From Thermoplasmata archaeon (GTDB lineage: Archaea > Thermoplasmatota > Thermoplasmata > Thermoplasmatales > Thermoplasmataceae): a DNA stretch of 64,000 nucleotides. Below are positions 47,694 through 64,000 of this stretch, in pieces. The position numbers and the translations under genes are program-made. The stretch's first letter is position 1. Each line of letters begins with the position of its first letter. A model generated the notes under the pieces. The model searched no databases. It worked only from the letters and a program-made list of their open reading frames with translations, and was not told the DNA's origin. The DNA is taken from contig JAKAVO010000001.1 in assembly GCA_021817255.1 (NCBI GenBank), positions 42,536 through 106,535 of the forward strand. The letters are read 5' to 3'.

Positions 47694-48110
47694 ATGGCGG
47701 AAAAAGGGGTTTCGATTGTTATTTCTTCCGGAACGGAAGAGAAGATGGTTATGTTGGGTGTTTTAAGCCAAACAACAGTAAATCTTGGGATGCAATTGAG
47801 GATTTTCGTAACTGGTACGGCAATTCCTCTCTTTCTCAAAGATGGATACAAGAAACATTCAGTGGTTCCAGCTGGTTTTGACGGTTTCATGAAAGATCTT
47901 CGCGAAGGCCTGGCTAAAGTCAAGTTCGAGGGATGGCATGAACTCTTGCAAAACTGTGTAAAAGATGGTGGTGCAAAGATATACGTATGTTCATTGATGT
48001 CCAGCGCGCTGAACATCCAGAAAAAGGATCTGGATCCAATGGTTGACGACCTTGTCGGAGCAACAAGTTTTATGATTCAGTCAGGGGAAAGCCAGTTAAT
48101 GGTATTGTGA
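47694..48110 (+). CDS. DsrE/DsrF family sulfur carrier protein
   Basis: IFVTG, IYVCS and VGATSF motifs; operon with tusA and sqr. Confidence 0.8.
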   Translation: MAEKGVSIVISSGTEEKMVMLGVLSQTTVNLGMQLRIFVTGTAIPLFLKDGYKKHSVVPAGFDGFMKDLREGLAKVKFEGWHELLQNCVKDGGAKIYVCSLMSSALNIQKKDLDPMVDDLVGATSFMIQSGESQLMVL

Positions 48111-48120
48111 GGTGATAAAA

Positions 48121-48357
48121 ATGACAACATTTAATGTAGATAGTAGAGGAACAGCATGCCCGGGGCCCATAACAGATCTTTTAAGGGCATATAAAAAGTC
48201 GCAGAACGGAGACACGATCATCCTGCTTGCGAACGATCCTGGAGCCGTACCAGACACGAAGACATGGTGCGAGATGACAAAAAACGAATTTGCAGGTTCA
48301 AAGCAAGTTGAAGATGCTTTCGAAATAACAGTAAAGGTGGCATCCAAAAAAGCTTAA
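48121..48357 (+). CDS. tusA: TusA family sulfur carrier
   Basis: DSRGTACPGP and DP...D...WC motifs; GAGGTGA RBS. Confidence 0.9.
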   Translation: MTTFNVDSRGTACPGPITDLLRAYKKSQNGDTIILLANDPGAVPDTKTWCEMTKNEFAGSKQVEDAFEITVKVASKKA

Positions 48358-48368
48358 AGTGGTGAAGA

Positions 48369-49766: not shown

Positions 49767-50318
49767 ATGGCAACCGTTTCAAAAAACGCAGTACTTGTGC
49801 TCATCGACATCCAAAAGGGATTCGATGAACCTCATTGGGGAAAAAGAAATAACCCTGATGCTGAGAAAATCATGATTGGTGTGCTACACAATTTCCGCTT
49901 AAATTCCAGGAAAATTATACACGTCAGGCATGACTCACTGGAACAATCATCTCCACTGAAGAGTGGAAAACCGGGTTTCGAATTCAAGGACGGTTTTCTG
50001 CCCCTTGAACATGAAAACGTGATAACAAAGCACGTAAACAGTGCGTTTATAGGGACAGATCTTGAGAAGCTGCTCATTTCATTGGGGAACCCGGAAGTTT
50101 ATATCATAGGGCTGACCACCGAGCATTGCATAAGCACTACTGCAAGGATGTCGGGAAATCTTGGGTTCAAAACATCTGTAATCAGGGATGCTTGTGCCGC
50201 CCACGAGAAGACAATGGATGGAAAACAGATCCCTGCAGACACTGTTCATATGGAAAATCTGGCGTCAATTAAAGAAGAATTCGCACAGATTCCATGGTCA
50301 CATGAGCTTGAATTCTGA
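49767..50318 (+). CDS. Isochorismatase-family cysteine hydrolase
   Basis: IDIQKGF, K..NSAF.GT and TEHCISTTAR motifs. Confidence 0.9.
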   Translation: MATVSKNAVLVLIDIQKGFDEPHWGKRNNPDAEKIMIGVLHNFRLNSRKIIHVRHDSLEQSSPLKSGKPGFEFKDGFLPLEHENVITKHVNSAFIGTDLEKLLISLGNPEVYIIGLTTEHCISTTARMSGNLGFKTSVIRDACAAHEKTMDGKQIPADTVHMENLASIKEEFAQIPWSHELEF

Positions 50319-50425
50319 TCATTAAGAATAAGGACGTCAGAAAAATACCACGTTAACCACCCACCTAACTTAAACAAAAATGAGTCTTCACCATATTTAT
50401 TATTAGGATTCGTTATTTCTTAATA

Positions 50426-51142
50426 ATGAGATTTAAAAGTGTTGTACTTGTTCCTGGTGCATGGCTTGGAGCGTAGGTTTGGAAAAAAACTCCACTGCTT
50501 GAGAACCATGGTTATGATGCATGCCCGGTTGCATTGACCGGTATGGGGGAGAGGAAATCTTGCGTCAAAGGATATCAACGTGGAACTGCCATACAGGACG
50601 TTCTGAACATTATAGAATACAACGATCTTAATGATTTAATTCTTGTGGGCATAGTTTTGCTGGAAGGTTTGTTTCAGCAGTTTCAGACAGAATAATGGGG
50701 AAAATAAAGTTGACACCATATCTGGATGCATTCGTGTCAAGCAATATAAGAACACCACAGGGGGATTCAATCCCGAATTGGAACACGGCGCGATTCCTCC
50801 CGGAGTTTACGTGATACCCTTAACTGACAGAATAATAGAAGATATAGGAAGTGATGTCAGGGGAAATGCCAGGGAATGGATGCTCGAAAAGGGGACTGTT
50901 TGGCCAATAAGGCTTGCAACAGATCCAATAGTGCTTTCAGATAAATATGATACTGTCAAAATAGCCTACATATTCTGCATAATGGACCGAGATGGCAAAA
51001 TTGCCGAAGAAATTTCCAAGAAATTAAAAGCGATCTTGAAAAGCATGTTGGCACTTATAAAACGATTGAAACAGGGCACTGGCCCATGGTAACAATACCT
51101 GAAGAATTTGTACAATACATGGTTGAACTTATGGAAAAATAA
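50426..51142 (+). pseudogene. Disrupted alpha/beta hydrolase (methylesterase-like)
   Basis: VLVPGAWLGA then premature TAG; LTGMG; frameshifted GHSFAG; YLDAF; terminal GHWPM in different frames. Confidence 0.8.
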
Positions 51143-51418
51143 TCGTTCACCTCTAAAATCGGGGGTAACCTGAATTTTCACGTGGAGATGTGACGCTCTT
51201 TGAGAAAGAAAGGGTGACATCGTGAATAAGCAAGCACAAAAGGCAAAAGCTTGATAATTTGCATATAAGTAGAGATCCGCCCTCTTCACTTATGTCTGGT
51301 CAGTGGACAGAACGTTATATGGAGCCCAATCATAACAAGTTCACTCGTTCTCATATTCCCTTACAAGGACGCATCAGGACTTATCACTCAAGATAGTTAA
51401 AATATTTGGTAGATTGGA

Positions 51419-52846
51419 TTACGGTGTCTTAGAGGCCAGTTCAGAAATGCTCTCCTTTTCGGTTCCTATGCTCTCGATTTCAACTTTGCTTTTCCTGTGA
51501 ATCGTGAGAATTACCAGTACCACTCCCACTAAGATTGCCGCAATGATTCCGTATGCACCAACATCTGTGGGGTAACTTGGAAAAGGAACAAATTCTCCAT
51601 ATATGGCAAATGCATAAACTACAGTGGATAATACAGGTCCAAGTGCAAGAGGTAGAAGACCTTTCGCCTTCATTCTCAAAGTCTTCTTTCCATAGACTGG
51701 CAACGAAAAGTTAGCAAGAATATGAACAATGTAAAGAACAACTCCATTTACTGCAGTAATGATTGCAGCACCCTCCATAGGGCCAAATATCAATCCTCCA
51801 ATCAGTGTTAACAATACAATAATAAACCATTCAGCCACTATAACTTTATGTGGAGAACCAAATCTTTTATGTACTACTGCCATCCATTTTGGAAAAACTA
51901 CTCCATCCCTGGCTAGCGCAAAACCTTCCCTGCTGAACGCGTTTCCTTCTGCTATGCCATTCGAAATGAAACTGTTCAGCGTGATTATTATGAAGACCGT
52001 CATAACAATAGGCCCAAAATAGTTGTTTACGACTGTAAATCCCGGGTTGGTTGCGGCTGAAAAAGAAGACATTTTAGTTATCCCCCAGCCTATAACCATT
52101 GAGTAGGATACAAGAATGTAAACCACTGCGGTTATTCCCATAGCAATGAAAATAGCTTTCCTTATGTTCTTTCTTGGATTCCTCAATTCTTCAGAAAGTG
52201 TAATGACTGAACCCACACCTACAAACCCCAGAATAGAAAAAAGGGTAGCAAATCCAAGGTTTCCAAATGAGTTTCCATTAGGAGTGAAGGGTATTAATGA
52301 GTTTGCAGGGCCTGCTTTAATTATTATGGCAATTGATATGCCAATCAGGAAACTTATTTCTATTAATGCACCAATAATTGTGTATGCTAAAGATGGTTTT
52401 AAACCCCTATATAGAAGAAGAAGTATAATCGAAAGGGGAATAAAAGCAAGTGGAATCCAACCGATTGGATTAGAGGACAGAGAAGGAATCATTGGCCAAA
52501 GAACACCTGCAAAAAATAGGACAGCAAAACCACTCAACGCTCCAAGCACGTTTATAAAATAAAGCCATCCCGAAAAAACTCCAAATTTTGGTCCTAATCC
52601 TGCCCTTACGTATGCATAGTACCCACCGGCGTGAGCTATTTTACCTGAGAAAACATAGTTCATGTACATGGCCGAAGAAACACCAATTATTGCAAGAAAG
52701 AATACAAAAGTAGTTGATGCCCCTACATAACCGGTCTCAACAACCAAAAATGAAGCTGCAACTGCAGCTGGAGCAATGAAAGCTATGGATTGAAAAACCC
52801 CTGCCCATAAACCACCTACATTCTTATGGAGAGATGAGGGCTCCAT
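51419..52846 (-). CDS. APC family amino acid/polyamine permease
   Basis: IAPAA, AGGYYAY, SEELRNP and R..FALARDG motifs; 12 TM helices. Confidence 0.9.
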   Translation of the reverse strand: MEPSSLHKNVGGLWAGVFQSIAFIAPAAVAASFLVVETGYVGASTTFVFFLAIIGVSSAMYMNYVFSGKIAHAGGYYAYVRAGLGPKFGVFSGWLYFINVLGALSGFAVLFFAGVLWPMIPSLSSNPIGWIPLAFIPLSIILLLLYRGLKPSLAYTIIGALIEISFLIGISIAIIIKAGPANSLIPFTPNGNSFGNLGFATLFSILGFVGVGSVITLSEELRNPRKNIRKAIFIAMGITAVVYILVSYSMVIGWGITKMSSFSAATNPGFTVVNNYFGPIVMTVFIIITLNSFISNGIAEGNAFSREGFALARDGVVFPKWMAVVHKRFGSPHKVIVAEWFIIVLLTLIGGLIFGPMEGAAIITAVNGVVLYIVHILANFSLPVYGKKTLRMKAKGLLPLALGPVLSTVVYAFAIYGEFVPFPSYPTDVGAYGIIAAILVGVVLVILTIHRKSKVEIESIGTEKESISELASKTP

Positions 52847-54165
52847 TACTTCACCTCCCCTTTAACTACTTCACTGAATATACGCATGCCCTGCTCGTTG
52901 AGTTCTTCAGGTATGTTCAAGGCTCCCATATATCTGAACACATTGCCAAAATGGCCACAGGTATGCATGATAAGCCCTGAACGAAGCATTTTCAACTTCA
53001 ATTTCATCATTTTTTCCTGAGACATTGGTTTATGGTCCTTACCCATCTCCACTCCAATCATAAACCCCTTTCCTCTGACTTCCAGAATATTTTCTGAATT
53101 TATGCTTTCAAATTGTTTTTTCATTATCTCGCCATCCCGTTTCACTCTTTCAAGCAATGAAGGGATTTTGTTAATTACATATGCCCCTGCAGCCATGGCA
53201 AGAGGATTGGCCCTGTAAGTTCCCATGTGGAAAGGTTTTGGCAATTTCTCGTCGTAATCGTCTCTGTAATAAATTGCAGATAGTGGAATCCCTCCTCCGA
53301 CAGACTTACTTATGCAGACAATATCAGGTGTTATATTTTCATGTTCGAATGCCCACATCTTACCAGTTCTTCCCATGCCTGACTGAACTTCATCAACAAT
53401 CATAGACAGTTCAAATTCATCGCAGAACTCCCTTAAAGCTTTTAGGAAACCTTTTGGAGGTACGATATACCCTCCTTCACCCTGTATTGGCTCAACCAAT
53501 AGGGAGTCTGGTCTATTGTATCCTGACTCGTGATCCAACAATATTTTTCTTAGTTCTGAGATTATGTCAGAAACATCAGTATCATACCATAAAGAATATG
53601 GAAACGGCACTCGTATCATTTCAAAACCAGGGCTATACACCGTTCTCCTGTATTTGCTTCCGGCTGTTGCCGAAATAATACCGCCAGAAACTCCGTGGTA
53701 AGCTCCCTCAAATGCTATTGTTGTACTTCTGGGATTTCCTACAGCATGAGATATGTTTACCGCCGTTTCAACCGCGTCAGAACCACTAATGCCAAACATC
53801 GTTCTATAATCCTTCATATCTGAAGGGAAGGAATTGGACAGGCTTTTAAGAAAATTTATTCTTGCTTCAGTAGGTATCTCCAAAGCATGCCATGTTTTAG
53901 CCAGTTGTTTTTCTATTGCATTCCTGATCTCCTGATCAAATCCTATATTAAGTACACTTATTCCCGCCATCCAATCTATGAATTTGTTGCCATCAACGTC
54001 TGTAATTATCGATCCCTGTGAACTATCTATCGCAATGGGCAATGTATCAGTGTAAAAAATAGTCCTTGTTTCATATTTATTTTGCAATTCCAGAAGATAT
54101 TTGCTTTTTGAACCCGGTATATTACCATTCGAATGTGGGATTACAATAGCTTTATTTTTTTTCAT
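52846..54165 (-). CDS. Class III aminotransferase (4-aminobutyrate/diaminobutyrate aminotransferase-like)
   Basis: SGSDAVE, AYHG, EPIQGEGG, DEVQSGMGRTG, SKSVGGG and HMGTYRAN motifs. Confidence 0.9.
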   Translation of the reverse strand: MKKNKAIVIPHSNGNIPGSKSKYLLELQNKYETRTIFYTDTLPIAIDSSQGSIITDVDGNKFIDWMAGISVLNIGFDQEIRNAIEKQLAKTWHALEIPTEARINFLKSLSNSFPSDMKDYRTMFGISGSDAVETAVNISHAVGNPRSTTIAFEGAYHGVSGGIISATAGSKYRRTVYSPGFEMIRVPFPYSLWYDTDVSDIISELRKILLDHESGYNRPDSLLVEPIQGEGGYIVPPKGFLKALREFCDEFELSMIVDEVQSGMGRTGKMWAFEHENITPDIVCISKSVGGGIPLSAIYYRDDYDEKLPKPFHMGTYRANPLAMAAGAYVINKIPSLLERVKRDGEIMKKQFESINSENILEVRGKGFMIGVEMGKDHKPMSQEKMMKLKLKMLRSGLIMHTCGHFGNVFRYMGALNIPEELNEQGMRIFSEVVKGEVK

Positions 54166-54306
54166 GGTTATCTAAACAGACTATACTGAAATATTTATAT
54201 TATTCTTACTCTTTTTGCCTGAAATGTTATTAAAATGCAATTTTATTGCAAAATAAATTTGATCATGGAAATAATGATTAAATATTTAGATAAAATATAT
54301 GTAGTA

Positions 54307-54786
54307 ATGCAAATTCATAACATTACCAATGTTGATTTGAAGATATTGTCCGTGCTTGCTCAAAACTCCGAACTTTCACTTAGAGAACTCTGTTTGAAAA
54401 CAGGCATTCTCTCACCTTCCGCCATCAGTAGAAGAATTCAGAAAATGAAGGATAACGGGATAATTAAGGGAAAAACCTTGGAGGTGGACTTACCCGCCCT
54501 TGGCTACAAATTTATAACAGCGACGTTTGTGAAAGCAAAGTATGGGCCAGGTTATTCGGATATGGTCGCCAGCAAGATAGCAAAGATAAAGGGGGTCACT
54601 TCAATATTATTTCTTTTAGGGGATATAGATTTTGTATTAACAACAGTGTGCAGGTCTAAAGAAGAATATAGCAGGATACTTGATGAGCTTACCAAAATAC
54701 AGGAAATAGAGAGAACAGACAGCAGAACCGTGTTGAAGTCTTATATGGAGAATAATCTTAGTTTTCTTGAACTCTCAACTCAATAA
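54307..54786 (+). CDS. Lrp/AsnC family transcriptional regulator
   Basis: DLKILSVL, HTH S..AISRRIQKM...GIIKG and GDIDF motifs; divergent from the aminotransferase. Confidence 0.88.
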   Translation: MQIHNITNVDLKILSVLAQNSELSLRELCLKTGILSPSAISRRIQKMKDNGIIKGKTLEVDLPALGYKFITATFVKAKYGPGYSDMVASKIAKIKGVTSILFLLGDIDFVLTTVCRSKEEYSRILDELTKIQEIERTDSRTVLKSYMENNLSFLELSTQ

Positions 54787-54789
54787 AGT

Positions 54790-55020
54790 GATATCCTAAA
54801 ATAAATATCCCTATATTCTTCATAACTTTTGAGACATCAAAGGTGAATCCCGATGCCTCGAATGCAATCCCTGTTTCCTTAGGTACCTTTTCCATGAAAA
54901 TCATGTACACTTTTCAGGTGTCATGGAGATCTGAACTGTTCCCTGGTGTCTCCACCAGGCGCCATATGAATTGCAAAGCTCTCCCTCTTTCCTGAATCTA
55001 TTTTAACCACGAAACCGTTA
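54790..55020 (-). mobile_element. IS110-family transposase N-terminal remnant (frameshifted)
   Basis: Manual translation across frameshifts: FVVKIDSGKRESFAIHMAPGGDTREQFR / FMEKVPKETGIAFEASGF; resembles the IS110 DEDD N-terminus (GID.. and ..EA.G). Confidence 0.65.
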
Positions 55021-55313
55021 TGCTAACTATACGCTTTTTCTATCTTTTATTTTATCCATCCAGTAGGCTCTATGACTGACAATGAACCGCCAATGAAGAT
55101 CGATTGAAGAATTTACTATTTCAAACACGAATCATTCAGTTCGATTCTGAAAAGAGGGTTCATAATAAGACTCGAGTCTGATAGTTTCGAAGATAAGCAC
55201 AGCGAAAGGAAAAAGGAATGTACTGAAAACCTTCAGGAGCTTGAATTCCAATAAGGCAATATAGCCTGATGCCCGTGATCTTGCTATCATCCCTATTGCG
55301 GAAATTGAGAACC

Positions 55314-55958
55314 TTATTTTTTTAACTTTTCTGCTTCTATAAGCTCACACCCAATAGCATAAGCCTCCTTTGTTTTTTCCTCTTTTATAGATTCCCAGAA
55401 ACGATCTGTGTGGAACAGCTTCTGAAAATACTCCACCTTTTCATGATAGGAAAATGGGCGGACCTGCTTCCTGAGTTCTTCTATTACTGGAAGGGCAATT
55501 GCATATGGTTTAGCCATATTGCCCAAGGCATCCCGCAAAAATTTTGAAAATGCAGGCGACTTCCCGGACGTGGAGACAGAAATAGTTACCCCGGAATCTT
55601 CGTATATCGCCGGAAAAACAATTGGGCTATTTATTTCATCAACCTCATTATACAAGATACCCGCCTCTACGCATATTTCCTTCAGTTTTTGCCTTAACCC
55701 GGAATCATCGGCTGCAATAATAACAATGGAGCTCTTATTGATCAAAGGTTTGATATCCTCTTCATTCATTATATCAGGCTTTATCTTTCTAATATCCAGT
55801 TTTGAGAATTCAGGAATAAAATACGTTGAAACAACAGTTATTTTTTCACAGTTGCCAACCAATAGTTTTGCTTTCCTGAATGCCTCTTTGCCTCCACCAA
55901 ATACAACTACTTCTCTTCCTGATGTGTTAAGCATTACGGGGATGAATTTTGCTTTCAA
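55314..55958 (-). CDS. sirC: Precorrin-2 dehydrogenase/sirohydrochlorin ferrochelatase (SirC/Met8, CysG N-terminal type)
   Basis: VFGGGKEAFRK, N.VD, FPA and ISVSTSGKSP motifs. Confidence 0.88.
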   Translation of the reverse strand: MKAKFIPVMLNTSGREVVVFGGGKEAFRKAKLLVGNCEKITVVSTYFIPEFSKLDIRKIKPDIMNEEDIKPLINKSSIVIIAADDSGLRQKLKEICVEAGILYNEVDEINSPIVFPAIYEDSGVTISVSTSGKSPAFSKFLRDALGNMAKPYAIALPVIEELRKQVRPFSYHEKVEYFQKLFHTDRFWESIKEEKTKEAYAIGCELIEAEKLKK

Positions 55959-56009
55959 TTTTACTTCCTCCTTTATCTTGATTTCTCGCGTCCGGCGATT
56001 TCGTTGAAA

Positions 56010-56822
56010 TTAGCCCTCTTTCCTGTTGTTGCCTGAAAACATCAGTTGCAAGCTGTCAGCAGAAATATCCTGCCTGCCTTTGGGTGATAAATGATTAATT
56101 CCTTTTGTGTTGAGTGAGGCTACATTTATAATTACAGTAGATAATTCCCCGTATTCACCTGGTTCAGAGTTAATAGCATTTTCTAACGTTGTCTTAATAA
56201 TTTTTTCATCTTTTCGGGAACCATTGGACACAATCACCAGAGGTGTACGCTTGTCCAGGCCAGTGTCACGCAATCTTTTGCAATAATCAGCCATATTTGA
56301 TGAACCCATGAGCACAATGATAGTATCTGCAGCTTTGGAGAGGGTTTCCCATCTCACGCTTGAAAAGTCTTTCTCCTTCGATTCATGGCCAGTTACAACG
56401 GCAAACGAGGATGAGAAGCGTCTGTCAGTAATCACAGTTTTGGAAGCCGCGGCAGAATAAATAGCTGAAGAAATCCCTGGAATTATGCTATATTCTATCC
56501 CCTCATTATCCAAAAACTGGATCTCCTCTCCTATCCTGCTAAATATAAGGGGATCGCCACTCTTGAGCCTCACCACATTTTTCCCGGCTTTTGCATATTT
56601 AACAAGCAGGGAGCCAATTTCATTTATATTCATTCCTTTCTGCCTTGGTGTTTCTCTGATAGGCACGATTTCCGTCCCTTCAGGCATCATGGAAAGAAGT
56701 TCCTGTGAAACCAGGGAATCATGTATAACCACATCACATGACTTCAATATCTTCATAGCTTTTATTGTGAGAAGTTCAGGATCACCCGGCCCTGCACCCA
56801 CAAAATATACCTTGCCATACAT
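56010..56822 (-). CDS. cobA: Uroporphyrinogen-III C-methyltransferase (SUMT)
   Basis: VYFVGAGPGDPELLT, VVRLKSGDP, IPGISS and VTGH motifs; start set at ATG 56822. Confidence 0.92.
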   Translation of the reverse strand: MYGKVYFVGAGPGDPELLTIKAMKILKSCDVVIHDSLVSQELLSMMPEGTEIVPIRETPRQKGMNINEIGSLLVKYAKAGKNVVRLKSGDPLIFSRIGEEIQFLDNEGIEYSIIPGISSAIYSAAASKTVITDRRFSSSFAVVTGHESKEKDFSSVRWETLSKAADTIIVLMGSSNMADYCKRLRDTGLDKRTPLVIVSNGSRKDEKIIKTTLENAINSEPGEYGELSTVIINVASLNTKGINHLSPKGRQDISADSLQLMFSGNNRKEG

Positions 56823-57000
56823 AATATTTAAATAACTATACGATCTCGTGTAATTAAAGTTTCTGGCACTTAAAATGTGTTTCCTAACAGGGTAGGAGTT
56901 CAGCAGAGTGAGGTTTTTGCGGATAAGGCTTGAACGAAAGGTTTCCATTTCTTCACATCTTCTCAGGGAGCAGGTATTTTTTTTCAAAGTCTTTTAGCCC

Positions 57001-58389
57001 CTAAGGGATAATTGCATTATAGACAAGATCCATCAAACCAGATGAAGATACTTTATGGTCGTATTTCTTGTTCAGCCTTGGAAGCGTATGGGAAAGCTGG
57101 GCCTTGCAAATAGCACAGGGCCGTATCACATAATCTCCTCCAATGGAAAGGGTATCCTCGTACCATAATTTTGCGTATTCCGTCCTCAGTGGGAGAAATT
57201 CATCGCTAAGAAGGCCTCCTCCACCTCCGCAGCACCATGTCCTCTCCCTCGAATGTGGTGAATCCTGATACTTGCTGACAACATTTGAAAGTATGAATCT
57301 TGGTTCATCAATCATGTCTCCTCCTCTTGCGTAGTTGCATGGATCCTGATAAACATATGATGGGCCATCATTCTTCTTCGGTTCGAATTTTATTTTTCCA
57401 TCCTTGATTGCGTCCTGGACCAGATTGAATACGTGCATGCCAGTAATCCCTCTCTTTGAAAGTTCGGGAATGACATAGTTCTTGAATGCCCTCCAGCCGT
57501 GTCCGCACTCACCCACGACAACAATTTTGGCACCAAGCTTCGTGGCCACTTCTACCATATGGTTCCCTATAGCCCTCAGGTGTTTTTCGTCTGTGAACAG
57601 TCCAAAATTTGCAAGTTCCGCATGTTCGGTCGCAAATGTATAATCAAGGCCAATTGAATGAAGAAATAACATATAGCCCTTTAGAGTCTCCATGTTGCTA
57701 AAGAAATCCGCGGAAGGAGGAACGAACATGGCGTATGCAGGCTCATCAATCTTTGGAGTCACATCCACTCCTTTCTCTTCCTTTATTTCGTCCTGTGCGA
57801 ATTCAATAGTGGATCTTAATGCAGGAGGAGGCAGTGCCATATTGTTTCCGGTTCTTTCTGCATTGTCTATTATGATGGCGGTATACCTCGATATCTTGCC
57901 TGTATCATACAGCGCAGATCTGATAGTTCTTGTAACGTCAGCCTGATCAATGCCAAACGGGCAAATTTCACCACATCTTCTGCATTCAAGGCATTGGTAA
58001 TAATAAGTTGAAATGTCCCTGAAGGACTGGTCATTCAGCTCTATTGCGCCAACAGCCTTGCCGAGCAACTTTCCCGAAAGGTTGCGTGATTTCAGGAGTC
58101 CCCTGATAAGATCAGCCCTCCCCACTGGGGAGTTATGTATATCCTCGGTGGACAAATAAGTAGGGCAGGCATTAAGGCACGCCCCGCAGTGCACGCATAA
58201 ATCGATTGCTAGCTTTACATTTCTGTTGTTTTTGACTCCATCCATCATGCACTTAAAAAACAATTCCTTCGGGTCTGAAGTTTTTTCGTTATTCACCCTT
58301 GAATGAAGCGTACTTACAAGCTCCTCCTTGGCCCATAGCGGCTCAAAATTAGAGGTATCCTCTTTCTTGAATTCAATCTCCTGTGGCAC
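57001..58389 (-). CDS. dsrK: DsrK-like (HdrD/CCG-domain) Fe-S protein
   Basis: CVHCGACLNACP, CLECRRCGEICP, GECGHG, QDPCN, CCGGGGG and PCAICK motifs; GGAGGTGA RBS before GTG 58389. Confidence 0.85.
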   Translation of the reverse strand: MPQEIEFKKEDTSNFEPLWAKEELVSTLHSRVNNEKTSDPKELFFKCMMDGVKNNRNVKLAIDLCVHCGACLNACPTYLSTEDIHNSPVGRADLIRGLLKSRNLSGKLLGKAVGAIELNDQSFRDISTYYYQCLECRRCGEICPFGIDQADVTRTIRSALYDTGKISRYTAIIIDNAERTGNNMALPPPALRSTIEFAQDEIKEEKGVDVTPKIDEPAYAMFVPPSADFFSNMETLKGYMLFLHSIGLDYTFATEHAELANFGLFTDEKHLRAIGNHMVEVATKLGAKIVVVGECGHGWRAFKNYVIPELSKRGITGMHVFNLVQDAIKDGKIKFEPKKNDGPSYVYQDPCNYARGGDMIDEPRFILSNVVSKYQDSPHSRERTWCCGGGGGLLSDEFLPLRTEYAKLWYEDTLSIGGDYVIRPCAICKAQLSHTLPRLNKKYDHKVSSSGLMDLVYNAIIP

Positions 58390-59182
58390 TGTTTTCACCT
58401 CCCTCGGTTGCCCCCGAAACATTCATTTCAGGCTGTTTAACATTCTTTATTTTATAGCTCTTTTTTGTAATCGTTGGCTGGAACAGGTAAGAAACAATAT
58501 GGACAATCTTTCCATATGGAATATAGGCGATAAAGATCAGGCCAATGGTAATGTGCACCGCCGTTACTGGACTTATGTTGGCCATTGTTGCTATCTCTGG
58601 CCTGAATTCAATAAGCGAAACGAGCCAGGGTGAGACTGTAAACATGAAAAGTGGTTTTATATAAAGTGTCTGCACAAGCCCCAAAATAATCAATGCAAGA
58701 AGCATTGATATGGCAAAATAATCGTCAAAATAGCTTATGCGCCTCATCCGTTTTACATGCAACCTTCGCGTGGCAAGGATCAAAATTCCGGCAAATGCGC
58801 TTATGCCGGCAGTTCCGCCCATATAAAGTGCAATCATTTCGTGGAATTGAAGAGAAACGGGTAATGGCAGGATCATGGCCAAGTGCCCCAAAAGTGAAAA
58901 CCAGATCCCATAATGGAACAAAACTGATCCAATGATCAGTGTCCTGTCTTTTTCCATTTTTGGCAGTGTGTAGAATAAAAATACCCTCTTAAATATGTCT
59001 TTCAACACGGCAAAAATATGGAAAGTGTTTGGGACGATAGCAACAGTCTTAAGGCCGGTAAGCCCCCTCGGAGAAATCCAGCTGGCCAATCTGTAAACGG
59101 CCCCGATCAAGAAGATTGCAAATGCTGCATAAGGAATAAAAATAAATAATATGGCTGTGAGCAGATAGTCCAAAGAATTCAC
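58373..59182 (-). CDS. dsrM: DsrM-like membrane b-type cytochrome (NarI family)
   Basis: FHYG...GH, RR....R..S...D, HI and PYGKIVH heme-ligand pattern; lies between dsrB and dsrK. Confidence 0.85.
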   Translation of the reverse strand: MNSLDYLLTAILFIFIPYAAFAIFLIGAVYRLASWISPRGLTGLKTVAIVPNTFHIFAVLKDIFKRVFLFYTLPKMEKDRTLIIGSVLFHYGIWFSLLGHLAMILPLPVSLQFHEMIALYMGGTAGISAFAGILILATRRLHVKRMRRISYFDDYFAISMLLALIILGLVQTLYIKPLFMFTVSPWLVSLIEFRPEIATMANISPVTAVHITIGLIFIAYIPYGKIVHIVSYLFQPTITKKSYKIKNVKQPEMNVSGATEGGENSATGD

Positions 59183-60309
59183 CTTTGGGCAAATTGCCTG
59201 ATGCCAAATTGCGATTCGCTGAAATCAGAGTTATTCCATTTTGTCACGGGTATTTCAAGTGTCTCCTGAAGTGACTTCAATCCAATCCGCCTCACATAAT
59301 CTGCAAATCTTTCTCCAGCGGCTCCATCTTTTTTCCACATGTCTATGATTTTTCGCAAAACCGAGACCAACTCGCCATAGTTTGGTGGATTGGCGGGTAT
59401 CCAGGGGATGAGCACCCTGGCAAGGTTTGGGCCCATACCGGTGTTGCTGCTCTTGCCTCCTACCAGGATAGAAATGCCAGTCTTCTTCGAATCGAATGTA
59501 ATGTAATCACAGACATCCTTGCACCTGCCGCACGCTATGCATTTCCCCCTGTCTATATTTATCCCTACAGAACCATCCTCTTTTCCAAATGCAGTTATGC
59601 ATTTTACGGGGCATACCATGACTACTTCAGGGACAGCCACCTTCAATGCTTCCGCTTTTCTCGGAAGGCACAAACCTATCTTCTGCGGGTCGAAAGAGGG
59701 TGCATCGCCATAGTGCCCCACAACCACAATGTCTGATGTCAGTCCACCACACGCAGTGGGGCATCCTGAAACATTGATCCTTAACTTGGCGGGAAGGCTT
59801 TCCTCGTCTTCGAAATACTTTCCGAAATTATCATACAGAACTTTGGTAATGGATGGGGAATCAACAACAGCTGTGGTGCAGGAAAGATATGCAGTGCAGG
59901 AAGAAATAGACCACAACGAATTTCTCCATCCGCCAGTACGATATCCCATCTTTTCCACCTCGCTCTTGATCATCATGGAATTTTCCAGGTTGTCTGCTAT
60001 AAATTCAATGTTTCCAGAACGGGTGAATCTCAATGCTTTTATGCCATATTTATCTTCAATGCCTGCGAACTTTCTCAGGGTATCAGAGCTGAATCTCGCG
60101 TTTGGAGTTCCACCCACTTTTATTGTAAAAACATGTTCACCGCTCTCTGAAATATGCTCTATTATCCCATTGCTGTGGAATTTTCTGTCAACCCATCTGC
60201 CGAGGTTCCTTTTTATCTCGTCAGGAAGGGAATCGGTGTATGGGACAGGCAATCTTTTTTTCATTCTTTCAGCTAAATTTGTGGACATTTTATCATTCTC
60301 CATATTCAT
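59179..60309 (-). CDS. dsrB: Dissimilatory sulfite reductase beta subunit
   Basis: GIIEHISESG, RFTRSGNIEF, CTAYLSC (CX5C), LPAKLRI.VSGCPTAC (CX3C), CPV..CIACGRC and GERFAD motifs. Confidence 0.92.
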   Translation of the reverse strand: MNMENDKMSTNLAERMKKRLPVPYTDSLPDEIKRNLGRWVDRKFHSNGIIEHISESGEHVFTIKVGGTPNARFSSDTLRKFAGIEDKYGIKALRFTRSGNIEFIADNLENSMMIKSEVEKMGYRTGGWRNSLWSISSCTAYLSCTTAVVDSPSITKVLYDNFGKYFEDEESLPAKLRINVSGCPTACGGLTSDIVVVGHYGDAPSFDPQKIGLCLPRKAEALKVAVPEVVMVCPVKCITAFGKEDGSVGINIDRGKCIACGRCKDVCDYITFDSKKTGISILVGGKSSNTGMGPNLARVLIPWIPANPPNYGELVSVLRKIIDMWKKDGAAGERFADYVRRIGLKSLQETLEIPVTKWNNSDFSESQFGIRQFAQR

Positions 60310-61474
60310 TCATTATTTTTTTTGCCCAAACAGAATAGCGTTCTCTCTCTGCGTCTGTAAGCACTGCACTGTTGATGATTCGCTTCTGTCCGGAGGGGGT
60401 CCCCTCTGGCTCAACAGGCAGTGTGTCCTTTACACTGTCTATTGTTTTGGAAAATCCTAATTTGACAAGCGTGTCACCAATCCTGTCTTTATGGGGAGCA
60501 TCCTCTTCCCAGATATTTATGATTTTCATTATGAAATCTTCAGCATCTTTATAGTCATCCAGTATTGTCACCGGTTTTGCCATCTTTGGGCCAAATCTTC
60601 CCTTTATGTTTCCGCCAGCAAGAAGCGCTATCTTCTTCTCTTTCCCTGGTTTTATGGCAGGAAACGCATATCTTATGCAGTTCATGGATTTCTGGCACTT
60701 TTCCGGGTCGATCCTGATGCCATCGGAATTGCCATCCTGTGTTATGGCACCTGACGGGCAACCCTGAACTAAATTTTGTATCTTTATGCCCTCTTTCCTG
60801 ATCTTGCTTTTGAGAAGGTTTTCATCCACATCGGGTGCTCCCTTCCACATCCCTATAAATCCAAAATCTGCCCTGTGTGCCGCTCTTGAACAATCCATAG
60901 GGCACCCACTGAACTTGAGTTTTACCTTGAATGGAAACATCTGGTTTGAAAGATTGTTATATATGGGTTCGTAAGTCATATAGTGGTCTCTTGCAGCGAG
61001 GGTATCATATTGGGCATATTCACACAGAGCCGGGCCTACACAGGAGGCAAAATCCCTGAAAGTGTCGCCAGTGTCCCCAACATCAGTTCCCAGGCTTCTT
61101 AAAACATCAATAGCTTCATCGGCCTTTTCCGGATCCATCGATATAATCAGGCCTCCAGTCTGCCCCATCACCTCTAAAAGCCCCAGCCCATAATCATCAG
61201 AAAAATCCAGGATTTTCCTTAAAGCATCAGTTTTATAAATCTGCCCCGAAGGCTGGTAAATCCTGAAATGAAGTTCGGAGTGCTTTCCATCCTTTGTCCT
61301 CCTTGCGATAAACCCAACATAAACATATCTTATCTTTGCGGAACCCCCAAACCACTGGGTCTCTTTTGCATCCAACCCTTTTGTATATGCTTCTATAGGG
61401 TACCGTGTCTTCCTTATTTCAGTGATATGGCTTGGCCATTCCCCATTTTCCTGATAATCAAGCGTTCCTGGCAT
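60293..61474 (-). CDS. dsrA: Dissimilatory sulfite reductase alpha subunit
   Basis: G.WPSH, QPSG, CVGPALC (CX5C), FPFKVKLKFSGCPMDC (CX3C), RADFGFIG.W and RIGD motifs. Confidence 0.93.
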   Translation of the reverse strand: MPGTLDYQENGEWPSHITEIRKTRYPIEAYTKGLDAKETQWFGGSAKIRYVYVGFIARRTKDGKHSELHFRIYQPSGQIYKTDALRKILDFSDDYGLGLLEVMGQTGGLIISMDPEKADEAIDVLRSLGTDVGDTGDTFRDFASCVGPALCEYAQYDTLAARDHYMTYEPIYNNLSNQMFPFKVKLKFSGCPMDCSRAAHRADFGFIGMWKGAPDVDENLLKSKIRKEGIKIQNLVQGCPSGAITQDGNSDGIRIDPEKCQKSMNCIRYAFPAIKPGKEKKIALLAGGNIKGRFGPKMAKPVTILDDYKDAEDFIMKIINIWEEDAPHKDRIGDTLVKLGFSKTIDSVKDTLPVEPEGTPSGQKRIINSAVLTDAERERYSVWAKKIMNEYGE

Positions 61475-61493
61475 AAAGATGCGCTCTCCGGCC

Positions 61494-61721
61494 TCAGTGC
61501 TCCCGTTTTAAGAGGAATTCCATGGCACCTTCCTTTTTGGACATTTCAATAATTGTTTGGCCTGTTTGTTTCGACCAGGCTTCAAAATCAGACTTTGCTG
61601 CAGGATCATCAACTATGACTCTGAAGGTTTCTCCAATCTCAACAGTCTTTATCGCCTTGTTAGTCTCTATAATCGGCATTGGGCATTGCAAACCTTTAAA
61701 ATTAAGAACTTTTTCATTCAT
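61494..61721 (-). CDS. tusA: TusA family sulfur carrier
   Basis: LNFKGLQCPMPI and DDP....DFEAW motifs; ends 19 bp before the dsrA start. Confidence 0.9.
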   Translation of the reverse strand: MNEKVLNFKGLQCPMPIIETNKAIKTVEIGETFRVIVDDPAAKSDFEAWSKQTGQTIIEMSKKEGAMEFLLKREH

Positions 61722-61808: not shown

Positions 61809-62249
61809 ATGGCCGAGGAAAAGAATGATTTACAAAAGAAGAGTAAATTAGTAATCGTACTCAGTAAAGGGACGCTGGATGCTGCCTATCCCGCTCTAAT
61901 AATTGCCACATCCGGCGTATCGCTTGGAATGGATGTTTATATGTACTTTACCTTTGGGGGAATGAAATTTCTTACAGAAGGAGAGAGTGAGCAGGTTGGC
62001 CCGTCAAAAGACCTTGGGCTTACAAAAGAACAACTTGAGAGCCTGACCGCAAAGGGGGGAATGCCATCCGTCCAGCAGATGTTGAAAATGGCTGCCGATA
62101 TGGGTGTGCACATTAATGCCTGTTCTCCAACAATGAAACTTTTCGGCACGACTGAGAAGAATCTGATATTGAAGGACACGAACATTGTTGGCGCTACGAC
62201 ATTTCTGGGATGGGCGTCTGATCCTACTGCAATAACACTATTCATTTAG
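61809..62249 (+). CDS. DsrE/DsrF family protein (DsrE2-like)
   Basis: KGTLD.AYP.LI.A, YFTFGG, INACSPTM and VGATTFL motifs. Confidence 0.85.
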   Translation: MAEEKNDLQKKSKLVIVLSKGTLDAAYPALIIATSGVSLGMDVYMYFTFGGMKFLTEGESEQVGPSKDLGLTKEQLESLTAKGGMPSVQQMLKMAADMGVHINACSPTMKLFGTTEKNLILKDTNIVGATTFLGWASDPTAITLFI

Positions 62250-62306
62250 TGTCAATCCAACTTCAAAACAGGGATTGGAATTGAATAGAAAGGGGTGTTA
62301 AAATAT

Positions 62307-62669
62307 ATGGACGAGAAAGCTAATAAAATCGCATTTTTTTCCACTATTTCTCCAGGTGACACGGCAAGAATTGACACTATGCTTGGATATGCGCTTGCAG
62401 GCATAGCCATGGGATATGAAGTTGTCATATTCCTTGCACTTGACTCTGCCCTGGTAGCAAAGAAAGTGATATTTGAAAAGTTAGACACTAAAATAAAAGA
62501 TCGAATAGAGAACTCCATCAATGAAGGCATCAAAATAGGTGTGTGTTCCGCTTCGGCAAAAACCTTCGGAATCGAGGTAAGTGACCTGATAAAAGGGACA
62601 GAGATAGAGGGAATTGCCACATTCTTCGGTTATGCTCAGGATGCAAAGATAGTGCTTTCCTGGAGTTAA
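62307..62669 (+). CDS. DsrE family protein
   Basis: A.GYEV.IFL.LDS, VCSASA and G.ATFF motifs. Confidence 0.8.
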   Translation: MDEKANKIAFFSTISPGDTARIDTMLGYALAGIAMGYEVVIFLALDSALVAKKVIFEKLDTKIKDRIENSINEGIKIGVCSASAKTFGIEVSDLIKGTEIEGIATFFGYAQDAKIVLSWS

Positions 62670-62748: not shown

Positions 62749-63339
62749 TTATTTGTTTCTAAGGTAATCCTGCACGATTTTTTCTACACCCCGCCTCATT
62801 ATGTCAGAAAGGCCGGCAGGAGAAATCCCTATCTCCTTGGCCATTGTTGTCAGAGACGTTTTCCTGTCGTGGTCAAAATAACCTTCCTCATAGGCTTTCT
62901 TAATGATTTCCCATTGCCTTTCTGTCAGTTCCATCGAGCTCCTGGAATAAGAACCAAGTATAACCAGTTTCATTCCAATTTTACGGAGCCCTCTTTCCAA
63001 AATTCTTAACTTTCCAGGGCTCTGGATAAGAACTTCGTACACCATATTTCCATCAATTGTTTCCGTACTCAAAACCGGGACTTTCAGGGAAGCAAAATAC
63101 TTGCAAATTAAGCAAGGTTTGGACTCTACCCAGAACCTGTCTTTTCCAACTCTCATAATGTTTTTGGAAAATTTTCTTAGGCTGCATCCCACAGCTTCCG
63201 GGTTAGACTTAGCGACTATACGGTAAAGTGTGAGGTGCTCCCACGAGATCAATCTTTCAACCCTGGCATCTGCTCCGGAAGCGCGTATATGGTTCACAAT
63301 AGGACAGGTCGATCTCATCACCTCGATCAGTGCTATCAT
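62749..63339 (-). CDS. Bacterio-opsin activator-type (HTH_10) transcriptional regulator
   Basis: LTERQ..I...AY..GYFD..RK.SL..MA..IGIS.. motif; N-terminal CP and C..C. Confidence 0.88.
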   Translation of the reverse strand: MIALIEVMRSTCPIVNHIRASGADARVERLISWEHLTLYRIVAKSNPEAVGCSLRKFSKNIMRVGKDRFWVESKPCLICKYFASLKVPVLSTETIDGNMVYEVLIQSPGKLRILERGLRKIGMKLVILGSYSRSSMELTERQWEIIKKAYEEGYFDHDRKTSLTTMAKEIGISPAGLSDIMRRGVEKIVQDYLRNK

Positions 63340-64000
63340 CTCACCATTATTCTTGTTTGGAATCTACACCACCTTCCCACCCTTTGCTTTCATATCGTAA
63401 TTTATTATAAATTCCACAATTCTCGTTATTTCAAATCACCTGAAATATCTTGATCCACGATGATTCCATTTTTTGGTTCACCTTTTCCAACAGATACTAT
63501 CAGGAAAGATGTTAGGATTTCTATGATCTAGAAATTCTAAGATGCCAGTCATCGTAGAATTACTCATTTCCCCCCATCCAGAGGCTCTATATTCGTGCTT
63601 TTGAAGCACTGCTTTTTGTTTATGCCCATTACCCTTTGCTATGCTAATATCATATCATCTTGCTATTTCATTTTTGCTACATCATTATATAACCACATAT
63701 CTGGAGATGTCTTTTGTCAGCTGGTTTCTATCACGGCAATATCAATTCTGCAAGCACCATCCACAACGTTTTTTGTATTCTCCGTGTCGTTGTTTTTGGT
63801 TCCATTTGAAAATTGGAAGAAGCCCATTTTAGAAGTGGAATCAGGCAAATTTATATTGGTCTTATGATGGAAAAAGCCCAGGAGTTCCGGTGTAGAAAAG
63901 AGCAACTTTACATATTAACCATAATGTACTTAAACCGCCAGAATGTACATATTTCGATATAAATGACAGCTAGTGAGGAAAATAAATCGTTTGAAATCAA

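What the first reader, a model, noticed from the sequence alone, without database searches (positions are those of the whole stretch)
55314..61721. Dissimilatory sulfite reductase module (dsrA-dsrB-dsrM-dsrK + siroheme genes) in a Thermoplasmatales-type genome
Seen: co-oriented, mostly overlapping tusA-dsrA-dsrB-dsrM-dsrK followed by cobA-sirC. Both Dsr subunits keep intact CX5C/CX3C siroheme-[4Fe-4S] motifs. The window has no sat, aprAB, qmo, dsrD, dsrL or dsrJOP. Established: DsrAB + DsrMK (with DsrC) is the minimal archaeal sulfite-reduction set, and characterised Thermoplasma/Ferroplasma/Cuniculiplasma isolates are not known as dsr carriers, although some uncultured Thermoplasmata are. Inference: a self-contained, probably horizontally acquired sulfite-respiration island with its own cofactor synthesis, beside an IS110 relic. 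It may let an acidophilic heterotroph respire sulfite.
Basis: partly seen in the sequence, partly recalled or inferred. Interest (0 to 1): 0.85.

Follow-up and report, generated by a model that had tools for sequence, protein, structure and literature searches.

The report
Acquired sulfite-respiration island with sulfur carriers
An acid-mine archaeon carries a complete, intact gene set for the archaeal type of sulfite reductase pathway, likely acquired sideways and likely used to breathe sulfite; that much is already in print for this lineage, but the set also holds three small sulfur-carrier genes that the papers I read do not report, one of them predicted to dock on the pathway's carrier protein.

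Summary
The cluster is tusA-dsrA-dsrB-dsrM-dsrK-cobA-sirC, then two dsrE-family genes and a regulator, then dsrC (starting at 63963) and dsrN, ending at tRNA-Thr: the full archaeal DsrABCMKN set. The host is Cuniculiplasma-like. DsrA nests among Thermoproteales-type reductive enzymes (published clade 5). Other runs' contigs show no chimera. Sideways acquisition is well supported: 0 of 16 congeners have dsrA, and the nearest relative is in another family. The IS110 relic is real but sits in a separate 4.9-kb strain-variable insert. No sat, apr, qmo, dsrD or dsrL was found (genome 78% complete). A 2026 paper (PMC12948486) already tabulates a Cuniculiplasma MAG with exactly DsrABCMKN. Not found in print: the cluster's DsrE occurs in 10 of 169 Thermoplasmatales genomes, 9 of them dsr-bearing, keeps an invariant cysteine, and is predicted to dock DsrC (0.62; best control 0.09). 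Best reading: facultative sulfite respiration, probably with a TusA/DsrE relay feeding in sulfur intermediates. Reverse or disproportionating use is the open rival. The scan earlier found TusA/DsrE-DsrMK-like operons without dsrAB on other DNA.

The parts
55314..55958 (-). sirC / CysG N-terminal type precorrin-2 dehydrogenase (possibly also ferrochelatase)
   Evidence: TIGR01470 72.6 bits, cut-off 62.3; only copy found in the assembly
56010..56822 (-). cobA, uroporphyrinogen-III C-methyltransferase (longest ORF runs to 56987; likely start Met56)
   Evidence: TIGR01469 239 bits, cut-off 185, match begins at residue 58; only copy found
57001..58422 (-). dsrK, two CxxCxxCxxxC clusters plus CCG domain
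   Evidence: NF045796 E 2e-94, under its cut-off; motifs at C76, C144, C397; nearest named relatives are Thermoproteales and Nitrososphaerota proteins at 50-65%
58373..59182 (-). dsrM, NarI-type membrane cytochrome b
   Evidence: PF02665 E 1e-33; NF038037 E 4e-16; His90/100/210/228 present (ligand role recalled)
59179..60309 (-). dsrB
   Evidence: TIGR02066 E 2e-96; best solved match 3mm5_B E 1e-44; motifs
60293..61474 (-). dsrA, archaeal reductive type (published clade 5)
   Evidence: TIGR02064 E 4e-92; trees; R58, R71, R140, K183, K185 invariant in 137 of 137 aligned
61494..61721 (-). tusA, first gene of the dsrAB operon, CPxP with Cys13
   Evidence: PF01206 74 bits, cut-off 28.6; same position in 3 of 3 other same-type Thermoplasmatales loci
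61809..62249 (+). dsrE2-like sulfur carrier, single Cys105, divergent from tusA
   Evidence: PF13686 E 1e-23; at E<=1e-25 found in 4 of 169 genomes, the four with this DsrA type
62295..62669 (+). dsrE-family protein tied to dsr clusters, invariant Cys84, predicted to dock DsrC
   Evidence: PF02635 E 6e-15; 10 of 169 genomes, 9 dsr-bearing; alignment; model 0.62 vs best control 0.09
62749..63339 (-). HTH_10 transcriptional regulator
   Evidence: PF04967; a homologue lies in 12 of 23 other Thermoplasmatales dsr loci fetched
63963..64000 (+). Start of dsrC (whole gene G000:C11:106498-106836, Cys100 and Cys111). Beyond the window follow dsrN (C11:107036-108421, +) and tRNA-Thr(TGT) (C11:108596-108668, -), the right border
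   Evidence: dsrC: PF04358 111 bits, cut-off 24.9, TIGR03342, motif. dsrN: TIGR00379 over cut-off, 58-67% to copies in same-type loci, separate 28% paralogue on C34. tRNA: ARAGORN; same tRNA in G011, G012, G013 with different genes on its 3' side, and a 43-bp duplicate of its 3' end in G013
54809..55019 (-). IS110 transposase relic (residues 12-81, frameshifted), inside the optional insert
   Evidence: tblastn E 1.3e-9 with L051:613-1707, which passes NF033542; DNA 67-72% to three congeners
50304..55236 (.). 4,933-bp strain-variable insert (broken hydrolase, APC permease, class III aminotransferase, Lrp regulator, IS110 relic) bounded by a 12-bp direct repeat; not part of the dsr set
   Evidence: joint skipping it in contigs of runs X7, X11, X13; repeat positions

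Best explanation
This is an intact archaeal reductive-type DsrABCMKN gene set with its own siroheme genes and three sulfur-carrier genes, likely acquired sideways by a Cuniculiplasma-like archaeon and likely used to respire sulfite to sulfide when oxygen runs out. Shown: the genes, their motifs, their place in the tree, their patchy distribution and the site beside tRNA-Thr. Inferred from established Dsr biochemistry: CobA and SirC make siroheme, DsrN amidates it, DsrAB reduces sulfite onto DsrC as a trisulfide, and DsrK reduces that to sulfide with electrons that DsrM takes from the quinol pool; a complex-I-like enzyme would recharge the pool from organic substrates. Sulfate cannot be used if sat/apr/qmo are truly missing. 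Inferred and untested: TusA, DsrE2 and DsrE would capture sulfur from polythionate or polysulfide and pass it to DsrC, so that sulfur intermediates of acid mine sediment also enter the reductive route.
For: DsrA groups 100/100 with Thermoplasmata and Nitrososphaerota sequences inside a 100/99 clade with Thermoproteus, Pyrobaculum and Vulcanisaeta, apart from bacterial DsrA; cultured members of those genera reduce sulfite, thiosulfate or sulfate (PMC10591310, passages). Gene content equals the minimal set DsrABCMK(N) (PMC10504309, passages). A Diaforarchaea enrichment with dsrABC and no Sat/Apr made sulfide from bisulfite, not sulfate (PMC7174415). No sat, aprA (only two weak matches far under the cut-off), qmo, dsrD, DsrL-length protein, molybdopterin oxidoreductase or PF00174 sulfite oxidase was found. 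Complex-I 49-kDa subunit and CoxI are present. Transfer: dsrA in 0 of 16 congeners, 6 of them at least 90% complete; nearest DsrA+B+K is from another family, 100/100, and holding the three Thermoplasmataceae sets together is rejected, p-AU 9.4e-14. Relay: co-occurrence, invariant Cys84, predicted DsrE-trimer/DsrC complex 0.62 against best control 0.09, runs sharing at least 76% of contacts, partner pLDDT 80; that mark was reached by 116 of 157 solved and 2 of 215 mismatched pairs, counts only rough for this job. [quoted passage not shown] Contigs of one RNA library cover parts of dsrK, M, B, A, dsrE and dsrC: a weak hint only.
Against: No activity or culture data exist here. TusA/DsrE relays to DsrC are established in sulfur oxidisers (PMC11094781), and a TusA-DsrEFH type II-DsrC relay is proposed to let reductive-type DsrAB run backwards (PMC13293266). 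The host has a haem-copper oxidase and an SQR about 6 kb from the cluster. The genome is only 77.7% complete, so missing genes are not proven missing. DsrA, DsrB and DsrK all fall under their NCBIfam cut-offs, though DsrA of cultured archaeal reducers does too (323-332 bits). Composition gives no sign of foreign DNA: GC3 within 1.5 SD, codon scores in the 4th-32nd percentile. No duplicated tRNA end was found. In the complex model DsrE Cys84 and DsrC Cys111 are not among the confidently placed contacts, and a pass may reflect likeness to known families. The electron donor to DsrAB is unidentified.
Confidence: 0.68

Rival explanations
1. The pathway runs backwards or both ways. SQR-made polysulfide or tetrathionate sulfur is passed TusA to DsrE to DsrC and oxidised by DsrAB to sulfite under low oxygen, or part is oxidised and part reduced by DsrMK (disproportionation).
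For: A dedicated DsrE beside the dsr genes, with an invariant Cys, predicted to dock DsrC; tusA is the first gene of the dsrAB operon; SQR nearby and CoxI in the genome; two TauE-family exporters; a DsrE-family or SQR-family gene lies in 17 of 20 loci of the other Thermoplasmatales DsrA type, the 3 misses being cut contigs; precedent for reductive-type DsrAB with a TusA-DsrE relay in oxidisers (PMC13293266).
Against: Archaeal Dsr is described as solely reductive (PMC10591310); no DsrL, no three-gene dsrEFH, no YeeE; no enzyme found to oxidise the sulfite; SQR homologues and the neighbouring dsrE-tusA-sqr unit also occur in congeners without dsr.
Confidence: 0.2
2. The set works reductively but mainly as an electron sink and sulfite or SO2 detoxifier for a fermenting heterotroph, with little energy conserved.
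For: Only DsrMK, no DsrJOP in the cluster; no hydrogenase of the Mvh type and no Hdr/Qmo partner found by tblastn; host is a heterotroph by gene content of the window.
Against: DsrK keeps all cofactor motifs, dsrMK accompanies dsrAB in every uncut Thermoplasmatales locus fetched, and DsrABCMK is the accepted minimal dissimilatory set; a complex-I-like enzyme is present.
Confidence: 0.1
3. The cluster is an assembly or binning artefact, or the proteins are assimilatory or AsrC-type reductases.
For: The genome is an incomplete assembly in 54 contigs; an IS relic lies at the left edge.
Against: Single contigs of 26.0 kb (X2) and 15.9 kb (X3) run through both the host genes and the cluster with 2-3 differences (both flagged as possible sources); in runs not so flagged, an X7 contig bridges window 54109-55330 and an X11 contig of a diverged strain holds sirC to the regulator; flanks are syntenic with congeners at 74-94%. 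AsrC and Nir/Sir models score 18-32 bits against 309-323 for DsrA/DsrB.
Confidence: 0.02

Closest known systems
Reductive archaeal-type DsrAB clade 5 of Thermoplasmatota (PMC12948486, mLife 2026; Results read, passages of other sections, supplement Tables S1, S2, S3, S5, S6, S11 in part)
   Same: Named record L028 (DsrA 75% identical, above the paper's 60% clade threshold) and a g__Cuniculiplasma MAG are both in clade 5. That Cuniculiplasma MAG is scored DsrA, B, C, K, M, N present and Apr, Sat, Qmo, D, EFH, L, JOP absent, the content found here. [quoted passage not shown]
   Different: The main text does not name Cuniculiplasma or TusA (0 occurrences each), and the tables score DsrE as absent. 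Gene order, tRNA-Thr site and the TusA/DsrE2/DsrE genes are not in the parts I read; its supplementary figures were not available to me.
Minimal DsrABCMK(N) set of archaea (PMC10504309, Neukirchen et al. 2023; passages and one supplement search)
   Same: Same gene set, dsrN near the core, no Qmo, short DsrK without DsrJOP.
   Different: In the passages seen, TusA is mentioned only as a likely donor to DsrEFH; no Cuniculiplasma or TusA entry in its supplement.
YNP-TEG Diaforarchaea sulfite reducers (PMC7174415, Colman et al. 2020; parts 2, 4, 5 of 9 read)
   Same: Thermoplasmata with dsrABC, no Sat/Apr/DsrD; bisulfite but not sulfate gave sulfide in enrichment.
   Different: Thermophilic; DsrAB under 45% identical to Thermoproteales, whereas this DsrA is 49-57% to their nearest copies; reported to lack Sqr and DsrEFH; have hydrogenases.
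Thermoproteales Dsr (Thermoproteus tenax, Pyrobaculum, Vulcanisaeta)
   Same: Closest cultured relatives: DsrA 52-57%, DsrK 55-59%; share the Ser/Ala at DsrA position 263.
   Different: Often two dsrAB copies and apr/sat nearby; the DsrC-docking DsrE was not found in any of the 21 fetched metagenome loci of 54-62% GC (Thermoproteales-like by sequence), many of them short.
TusA-DsrEFH-DsrC relay of rDsr sulfur oxidisers, DsrEFH type II (PMC13293266) and DsrE3A/DsrE2B/TusA of Metallosphaera cuprina (PMC4175335)
   Same: TusA with CPxP Cys, DsrE-fold proteins with the family Cys; best solved match of the DsrE profile is 3MC3 (E 3.6e-9), the trimeric SSO1125 according to PMC11094781.
   Different: Two separate dsrE-family genes rather than a three-gene dsrEFH; no DsrL, no YeeE, no sHdr in the cluster; attached to an archaeal reductive-type DsrAB.

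Membership tests
Archaeal reductive-type DsrAB, minimal DsrABCMK(N) set | Adjacent dsrA and dsrB, each with CX5C...CX3C | tested here: met
Archaeal reductive-type DsrAB, minimal DsrABCMK(N) set | Basic substrate-binding residues of DsrA | tested here: met
   R58, R71, R140, K183, K185 invariant in 137 of 137 and aligned with Arg/Lys of 3mm5_A; their role is recalled, the paper search found nothing
Archaeal reductive-type DsrAB, minimal DsrABCMK(N) set | Ferredoxin-type [4Fe-4S] motif in each subunit | tested here: inconclusive
   DsrB has CxxCxxC plus C233/C237/C267. DsrA has C260-x2-S263-x2-C266 with C239; Ser or Ala there in 126 of 137 aligned, including cultured Thermoproteales, so a clade trait, not damage
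Archaeal reductive-type DsrAB, minimal DsrABCMK(N) set | Branches in the archaeal reductive clade, apart from bacterial DsrA | tested here: met
   quick tree, 70 rows; 34 rows, rooted on DsrB; three bacterial-type DsrA, no labelled oxidative type
Archaeal reductive-type DsrAB, minimal DsrABCMK(N) set | NCBIfam curated cut-offs for DsrA, DsrB, DsrK, DsrM | tested here: not met
   309/392.85, 323/341.5, 317/400, 59/300; DsrA of T. tenax, P. aerophilum and V. distributa also fall under, so the cut-offs do not define the archaeal type
Archaeal reductive-type DsrAB, minimal DsrABCMK(N) set | DsrC with two C-terminal cysteines (C-x10-C) | tested here: met
   C100, C111, invariant in 14 of 14
Archaeal reductive-type DsrAB, minimal DsrABCMK(N) set | DsrM (membrane cytochrome b) next to DsrK (two [4Fe-4S] plus CCG) | tested here: met
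Archaeal reductive-type DsrAB, minimal DsrABCMK(N) set | DsrN near the core | tested here: met
   CobB/CbiA-family gene beside dsrC; assigned by position and 58-67% identity to same-type loci, no DsrN tree built
Archaeal reductive-type DsrAB, minimal DsrABCMK(N) set | Reduces sulfite to sulfide in cells | not testable with these tools
   needs culture or purified proteins
[quoted passage not shown] | sat, aprAB, qmoABC | tested here: not met
   genome 77.7% complete, so 'not found', not proven absent
Oxidative rDsr pathway | Oxidative-type DsrAB by phylogeny | tested here: not met
   nests in the archaeal reductive clade
Oxidative rDsr pathway | Three-gene dsrEFH (type I or II) and dsrL | tested here: not met
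   two dsrE-family genes only; the single PF14691 protein is 484 aa, GltD/SudA-like, on another contig and in 16 of 17 genomes of the genus; type II HMMs were not available
Oxidative rDsr pathway | TusA and DsrE-fold carriers with active Cys able to reach DsrC | tested here: inconclusive
   Cys13, Cys105, Cys84 present; model supports DsrE-DsrC docking, 0.62 vs 0.09; transfer and its direction untested
AsrC / assimilatory Sir-Nir reductases | Best family match and single-subunit or fused layout | tested here: not met
   18-32 bits against 309-323 for DsrA/DsrB
tRNA-integrated genomic island | Lies at the 3' side of a tRNA in a region that differs among relatives | tested here: met
tRNA-integrated genomic island | Duplicated tRNA 3' end at the far border and an integrase | tested here: not met
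   no second copy of 12 nt or more of the tRNA's 3' end in the assembly; no integrase among the ORFs scanned between the SQR and the tRNA; not searched genome-wide

The most novel reading that the evidence does not exclude
Thermoplasmata dsr clusters encode a dedicated homo-oligomeric DsrE that, with TusA and DsrE2, loads sulfane sulfur onto DsrC, a one-gene stand-in for DsrEFH. It lets a facultatively aerobic acidophile run an archaeal 'reductive-type' Dsr backwards or disproportionate sulfur intermediates: the first archaeal Dsr that is not purely reductive.
Probability: 0.2. Interest if true: 0.8.

Novelty: new variant of a known kind. Interest (0 to 1): 0.42.

Why it matters
The headline, dsr genes in a Cuniculiplasma-like archaeon, is already tabulated and does not surprise. 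It still marks a common acid-mine genus as a practical target for culturing an archaeal sulfite reducer of a clade for which I saw no isolate among the named hits. The part that could matter more is the carrier set. DsrE-to-DsrC transfer is a textbook sign of sulfur oxidation, while archaeal Dsr is held to be purely reductive. If this DsrE really loads DsrC, then either acid-mine archaea feed polythionate and polysulfide sulfur into sulfite respiration without the usual molybdoenzymes, or archaeal Dsr can run both ways. Either would change how dsrAB from acidic sediments is read. All three carriers and DsrC are small soluble proteins, so the test is cheap.

Tried and rejected
IS110 as the vehicle: rejected, the relic is inside a separate insert that other strains lack. 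Pfam scans of the relic found nothing; only comparison with congeners showed it. Taurine-type sulfite supply from the neighbouring aminotransferase and permease: set aside, since both lie in the optional insert, the aminotransferase has a close match in 1 of 16 congeners only and none of the family cut-offs shown was met; desulfonation enzymes were not searched. DsrA Cys-to-Ser as damage: rejected, clade-wide. Viral carriage: no DsrB relative in viral contigs (single-protein query, close relatives only). Composition as proof of transfer: no clear signal. Repeat and promoter scans: nothing useful, promoter counts at chance level. The small gene before dsrA in the other Thermoplasmatales type as a TusA: rejected after alignment, it is a CPxC/CPNC protein. 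DsrK as a member of stand-alone TusA-DsrE-DsrMK-like operons: not supported, its best hits follow the DsrA relatives; no tree with those operons was built. The tenth DsrE genome, G130 (69% complete), has the gene 1.1 kb from a contig end with no dsr gene in the 11.6 kb fetched: inconclusive. RNA run X12 shows no contigs over sirC, cobA and the left flank; contigs cannot show level or strand, so this is not used. Scan notes near this place: none. Paper searches for novelty: (open-licence library only); none of the listings or passages read describes TusA/DsrE in Thermoplasmata dsr clusters. dsrJ, dsrO and dsrP were not searched genome-wide.

Full report
Observation. The seven genes are present, open and co-oriented on the minus strand between 55314 and 61721. 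NCBIfam and Pfam assign tusA, dsrA, dsrB, a NarI-type dsrM, dsrK, cobA and sirC. DsrA and DsrB both keep CX5C and CX3C; DsrK keeps two four-cysteine clusters and a CCG motif. The best solved matches are the 3mm5 dissimilatory alpha (E 9e-47) and beta (E 1e-44) chains. AsrC and Nir/Sir models score a tenth as much. Three of six junctions overlap.

The cluster is larger than reported. Divergent from tusA lie a dsrE2-like gene (61809-62249) and a dsrE-like gene (62295-62669), then an HTH_10 regulator. dsrC begins at 63963 and dsrN follows beyond the window, then tRNA-Thr(TGT). This is the full minimal archaeal set DsrABCMK(N) of PMC10504309 (passages).

Host. The window's MetK is 94% and an enolase-family protein 90% identical to proteins named Cuniculiplasma divulgatum. 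Flanking genes are syntenic with congeners, including a complete 1.94-Mb genome. The assembly is 77.7% complete. Runs that hold the stretch are recorded as mine drainage, mine tailings or sediment metagenomes where a habitat label is given.

Not a chimera. Contigs of 26.0 kb (X2) and 15.9 kb (X3) cross host genes and the whole cluster with 2-3 differences, but both runs are flagged as possible sources. Among runs not flagged, an X7 contig bridges window 54109-55330, and X11 holds a diverged strain (271 differences over 8.5 kb) with the same order from sirC to the regulator.

The left edge. Contigs of X7, X11 and X13 join window 50303 to 55237, skipping 4,933 bp bounded by a 12-bp direct repeat. 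That insert holds the permease, aminotransferase, Lrp regulator and the IS110 relic. The relic is real: it matches residues 12-81 of a congener's full IS110 transposase (E 1.3e-9), though Pfam missed it. It is therefore a neighbour, not a shown vehicle.

Origin. dsrAB is in 24 of 169 Thermoplasmatales species and 0 of 16 congeners. Two types occur among the 23 others: 20 genomes at 33-39% DsrA identity and 3 at 69-75%. G046, from another family, has the same order from sirC to dsrE. In a 34-row tree rooted on DsrB, this DsrA sits in a 100/100 Thermoplasmata-Nitrososphaerota clade inside a 100/99 clade with Thermoproteus, Pyrobaculum and Vulcanisaeta, apart from three bacterial-type DsrA; a 70-row quick tree agrees. 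In a DsrA+B+K tree of 10 rows, G000 pairs with G046 at 100/100, and forcing the three Thermoplasmataceae sets together is rejected (p-AU 9.4e-14; the group is taxonomic, but I had seen the earlier tree). The direction of transfer is not shown. Three congeners carry different genes on the 3' side of the same tRNA, and G013 has a 43-bp duplicate of the tRNA end, marking an insertion site. Against recent integrase-driven transfer: no duplicated tRNA end here and no composition anomaly.

What is missing. No ATP sulfurylase, AprA, Qmo or Mvh hydrogenase by tblastn with relatives' proteins, DsrD, molybdopterin oxidoreductase, YeeE, cytochrome bd or PF00174 oxidase (0 of 17 in the genus) was found. 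The one PF14691 protein is a genus-wide 484-aa GltD/SudA-like enzyme, not DsrL. CoxI, a complex-I 49-kDa subunit, rhodaneses and two TauE proteins are present. With 78% completeness these are 'not found', not absent.

What is known. [quoted passage not shown] Its tables list a g__Cuniculiplasma MAG with DsrABCMKN and without Apr, Sat, Qmo, DsrD, EFH, L or JOP, in clade 5 together with named record L028, whose DsrA is 75% identical to this one. PMC9326234 (passages) reports dsrAB in a Thermoplasmatales MAG from an acidic pit lake. PMC7174415 (three of nine parts) gives enrichment evidence for bisulfite but not sulfate reduction in related Thermoplasmata.

What I did not find in print. The DsrE at 62295-62669 has matches in 10 of 169 genomes, 9 of them dsr-bearing, spanning both DsrA types; kin are not independent, so no statistic is given, and 15 of the 24 dsr genomes lack it. 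The DsrE2 has close matches only in the four genomes with this DsrA type, and tusA precedes dsrA in all four. The same DsrE lies in 3 of 4 high-GC Thermoplasmata genome loci and in 6 of 34 metagenome loci, many of which are cut short; none of the 21 metagenome loci of 54-62% GC had it. Cys84 is invariant in 12 of 12, and the closest structure is 3MC3, a trimer per PMC11094781 (passages). A model of a DsrE trimer with DsrC scored 0.62 against a best control of 0.09, with at least 76% contact agreement and partner pLDDT 80; the mark was reached by 116 of 157 solved and 2 of 215 mismatched pairs, and these counts hold only roughly for this job. The confident contacts join DsrE residues 19-24 and 50-62 mainly with DsrC 63-78; the catalytic cysteines are not among them, and likeness to known families may explain the pass. 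The published tables score DsrE as absent in the two rows I looked up. Seven searches of the open library showed no description; subscription papers and supplementary figures were not seen.

Mechanism. Shown: genes, motifs, tree position, distribution. Inferred from Dsr biochemistry: siroheme from CobA/SirC, amidated by DsrN; DsrAB turns sulfite and DsrC into DsrC trisulfide; DsrMK reduces it with quinol and releases sulfide. The relatives with known physiology all reduce (PMC10591310, passages), and no route to oxidise sulfite was found, so I put reductive respiration at 0.68. The carriers most simply widen its inputs: archaeal DsrE3A and TusA take thiosulfonate from tetrathionate (PMC4175335), and sulfur passed to DsrC could be reduced by DsrMK. 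The rival is reverse or two-way use, 0.2, since TusA-DsrE-DsrC relays are established in oxidisers and proposed for reductive-type DsrAB (passages) and the host has SQR and CoxI. One RNA library has contigs over parts of dsrK, M, B, A, dsrE and dsrC; this is a weak hint, as contigs show neither strand nor level and the run was found with this region.

Verdict. Observation confirmed; interpretation partly supported. The core is already known in this lineage. The dedicated TusA/DsrE2/DsrE set makes it a variant worth a simple biochemical test. Interest 0.42; the bold reading has probability 0.2 and interest 0.8.

Noticed in passing
L033:8757-9068, L035:8454-8765, L036:10142-10441, L037:10286-10588 and the other loci: All 20 Thermoplasmatales loci with the other (33-39%) DsrA type carry a roughly 100-aa protein between dsrC and dsrA, with invariant CPxC, CPNC and KC motifs in 9 of 9 aligned and no Pfam family over cut-off in the one copy scanned. 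It looks like an unnamed, possibly metal-binding, Dsr accessory protein; it is absent from this window's cluster.
   Followed up: partly
window 60677-60697 (DsrA residues 260-266): The second cysteine of the DsrA ferredoxin motif is Ser or Ala in 126 of 137 aligned archaeal DsrA, including cultured Thermoproteales, but Cys in the other Thermoplasmatales type. The cluster may have a non-cysteine ligand or be [3Fe-4S].
   Followed up: partly
window 47685-49583: Host dsrE-tusA-sqr unit (type III SQR-like, NF049943 E 1e-85) about 6 kb left of the cluster, also in congeners G011 and G013 without dsr. In strains lacking the 4.9-kb insert it lies close to sirC.
   Followed up: partly
window 50304-55236: Strain-variable insert with a 12-bp direct repeat that falls on the last codons of the isochorismatase-family gene; holds a broken alpha/beta hydrolase (about 50420-51092), APC permease, class III aminotransferase and Lrp regulator.
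   Followed up: yes
L002:5732-7844 (G000:C11:108731-110843): The S9 peptidase right of tRNA-Thr is split by a roughly 225-bp repeat that recurs on C51 at 97%; congeners have one 610-aa ORF and run X11 lacks the repeat.
   Followed up: partly
L044:5781-10449 (G013): A 4.6-kb island between tRNA-Thr and a 43-bp copy of its 3' end, carrying an MFS transporter, a TrmB regulator and a metallo-beta-lactamase-fold protein.
   Followed up: partly
L108:5063-7967 (G000:C28): A TauE-family gene sits close to a 484-aa GltD/SudA-like NAD(P)-linked Fe-S flavoprotein found in 16 of 17 genomes of the genus; a candidate electron partner for DsrAB, untested.
   Followed up: no
L109:1031-7625 (G000:C6): Hydrogenase-4-like membrane cluster with a second complex-I 49-kDa-family subunit; whether it binds nickel was not checked.
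   Followed up: no
L036:7538-7930, L038:11576-11929: A DUF2173 / Roadblock-like gene lies between dsrB and dsrM in 5 of the 20 other-type loci.
   Followed up: no
P0345: A Nitrososphaerota DsrK relative, 65% identical, is 685 aa and carries an extra PF00355 (Rieske, name recalled) domain.
   Followed up: no
window 63340-63962: A 620-bp gap between the regulator and dsrC has no Pfam match in six frames and no repeat elsewhere in the assembly.
   Followed up: partly
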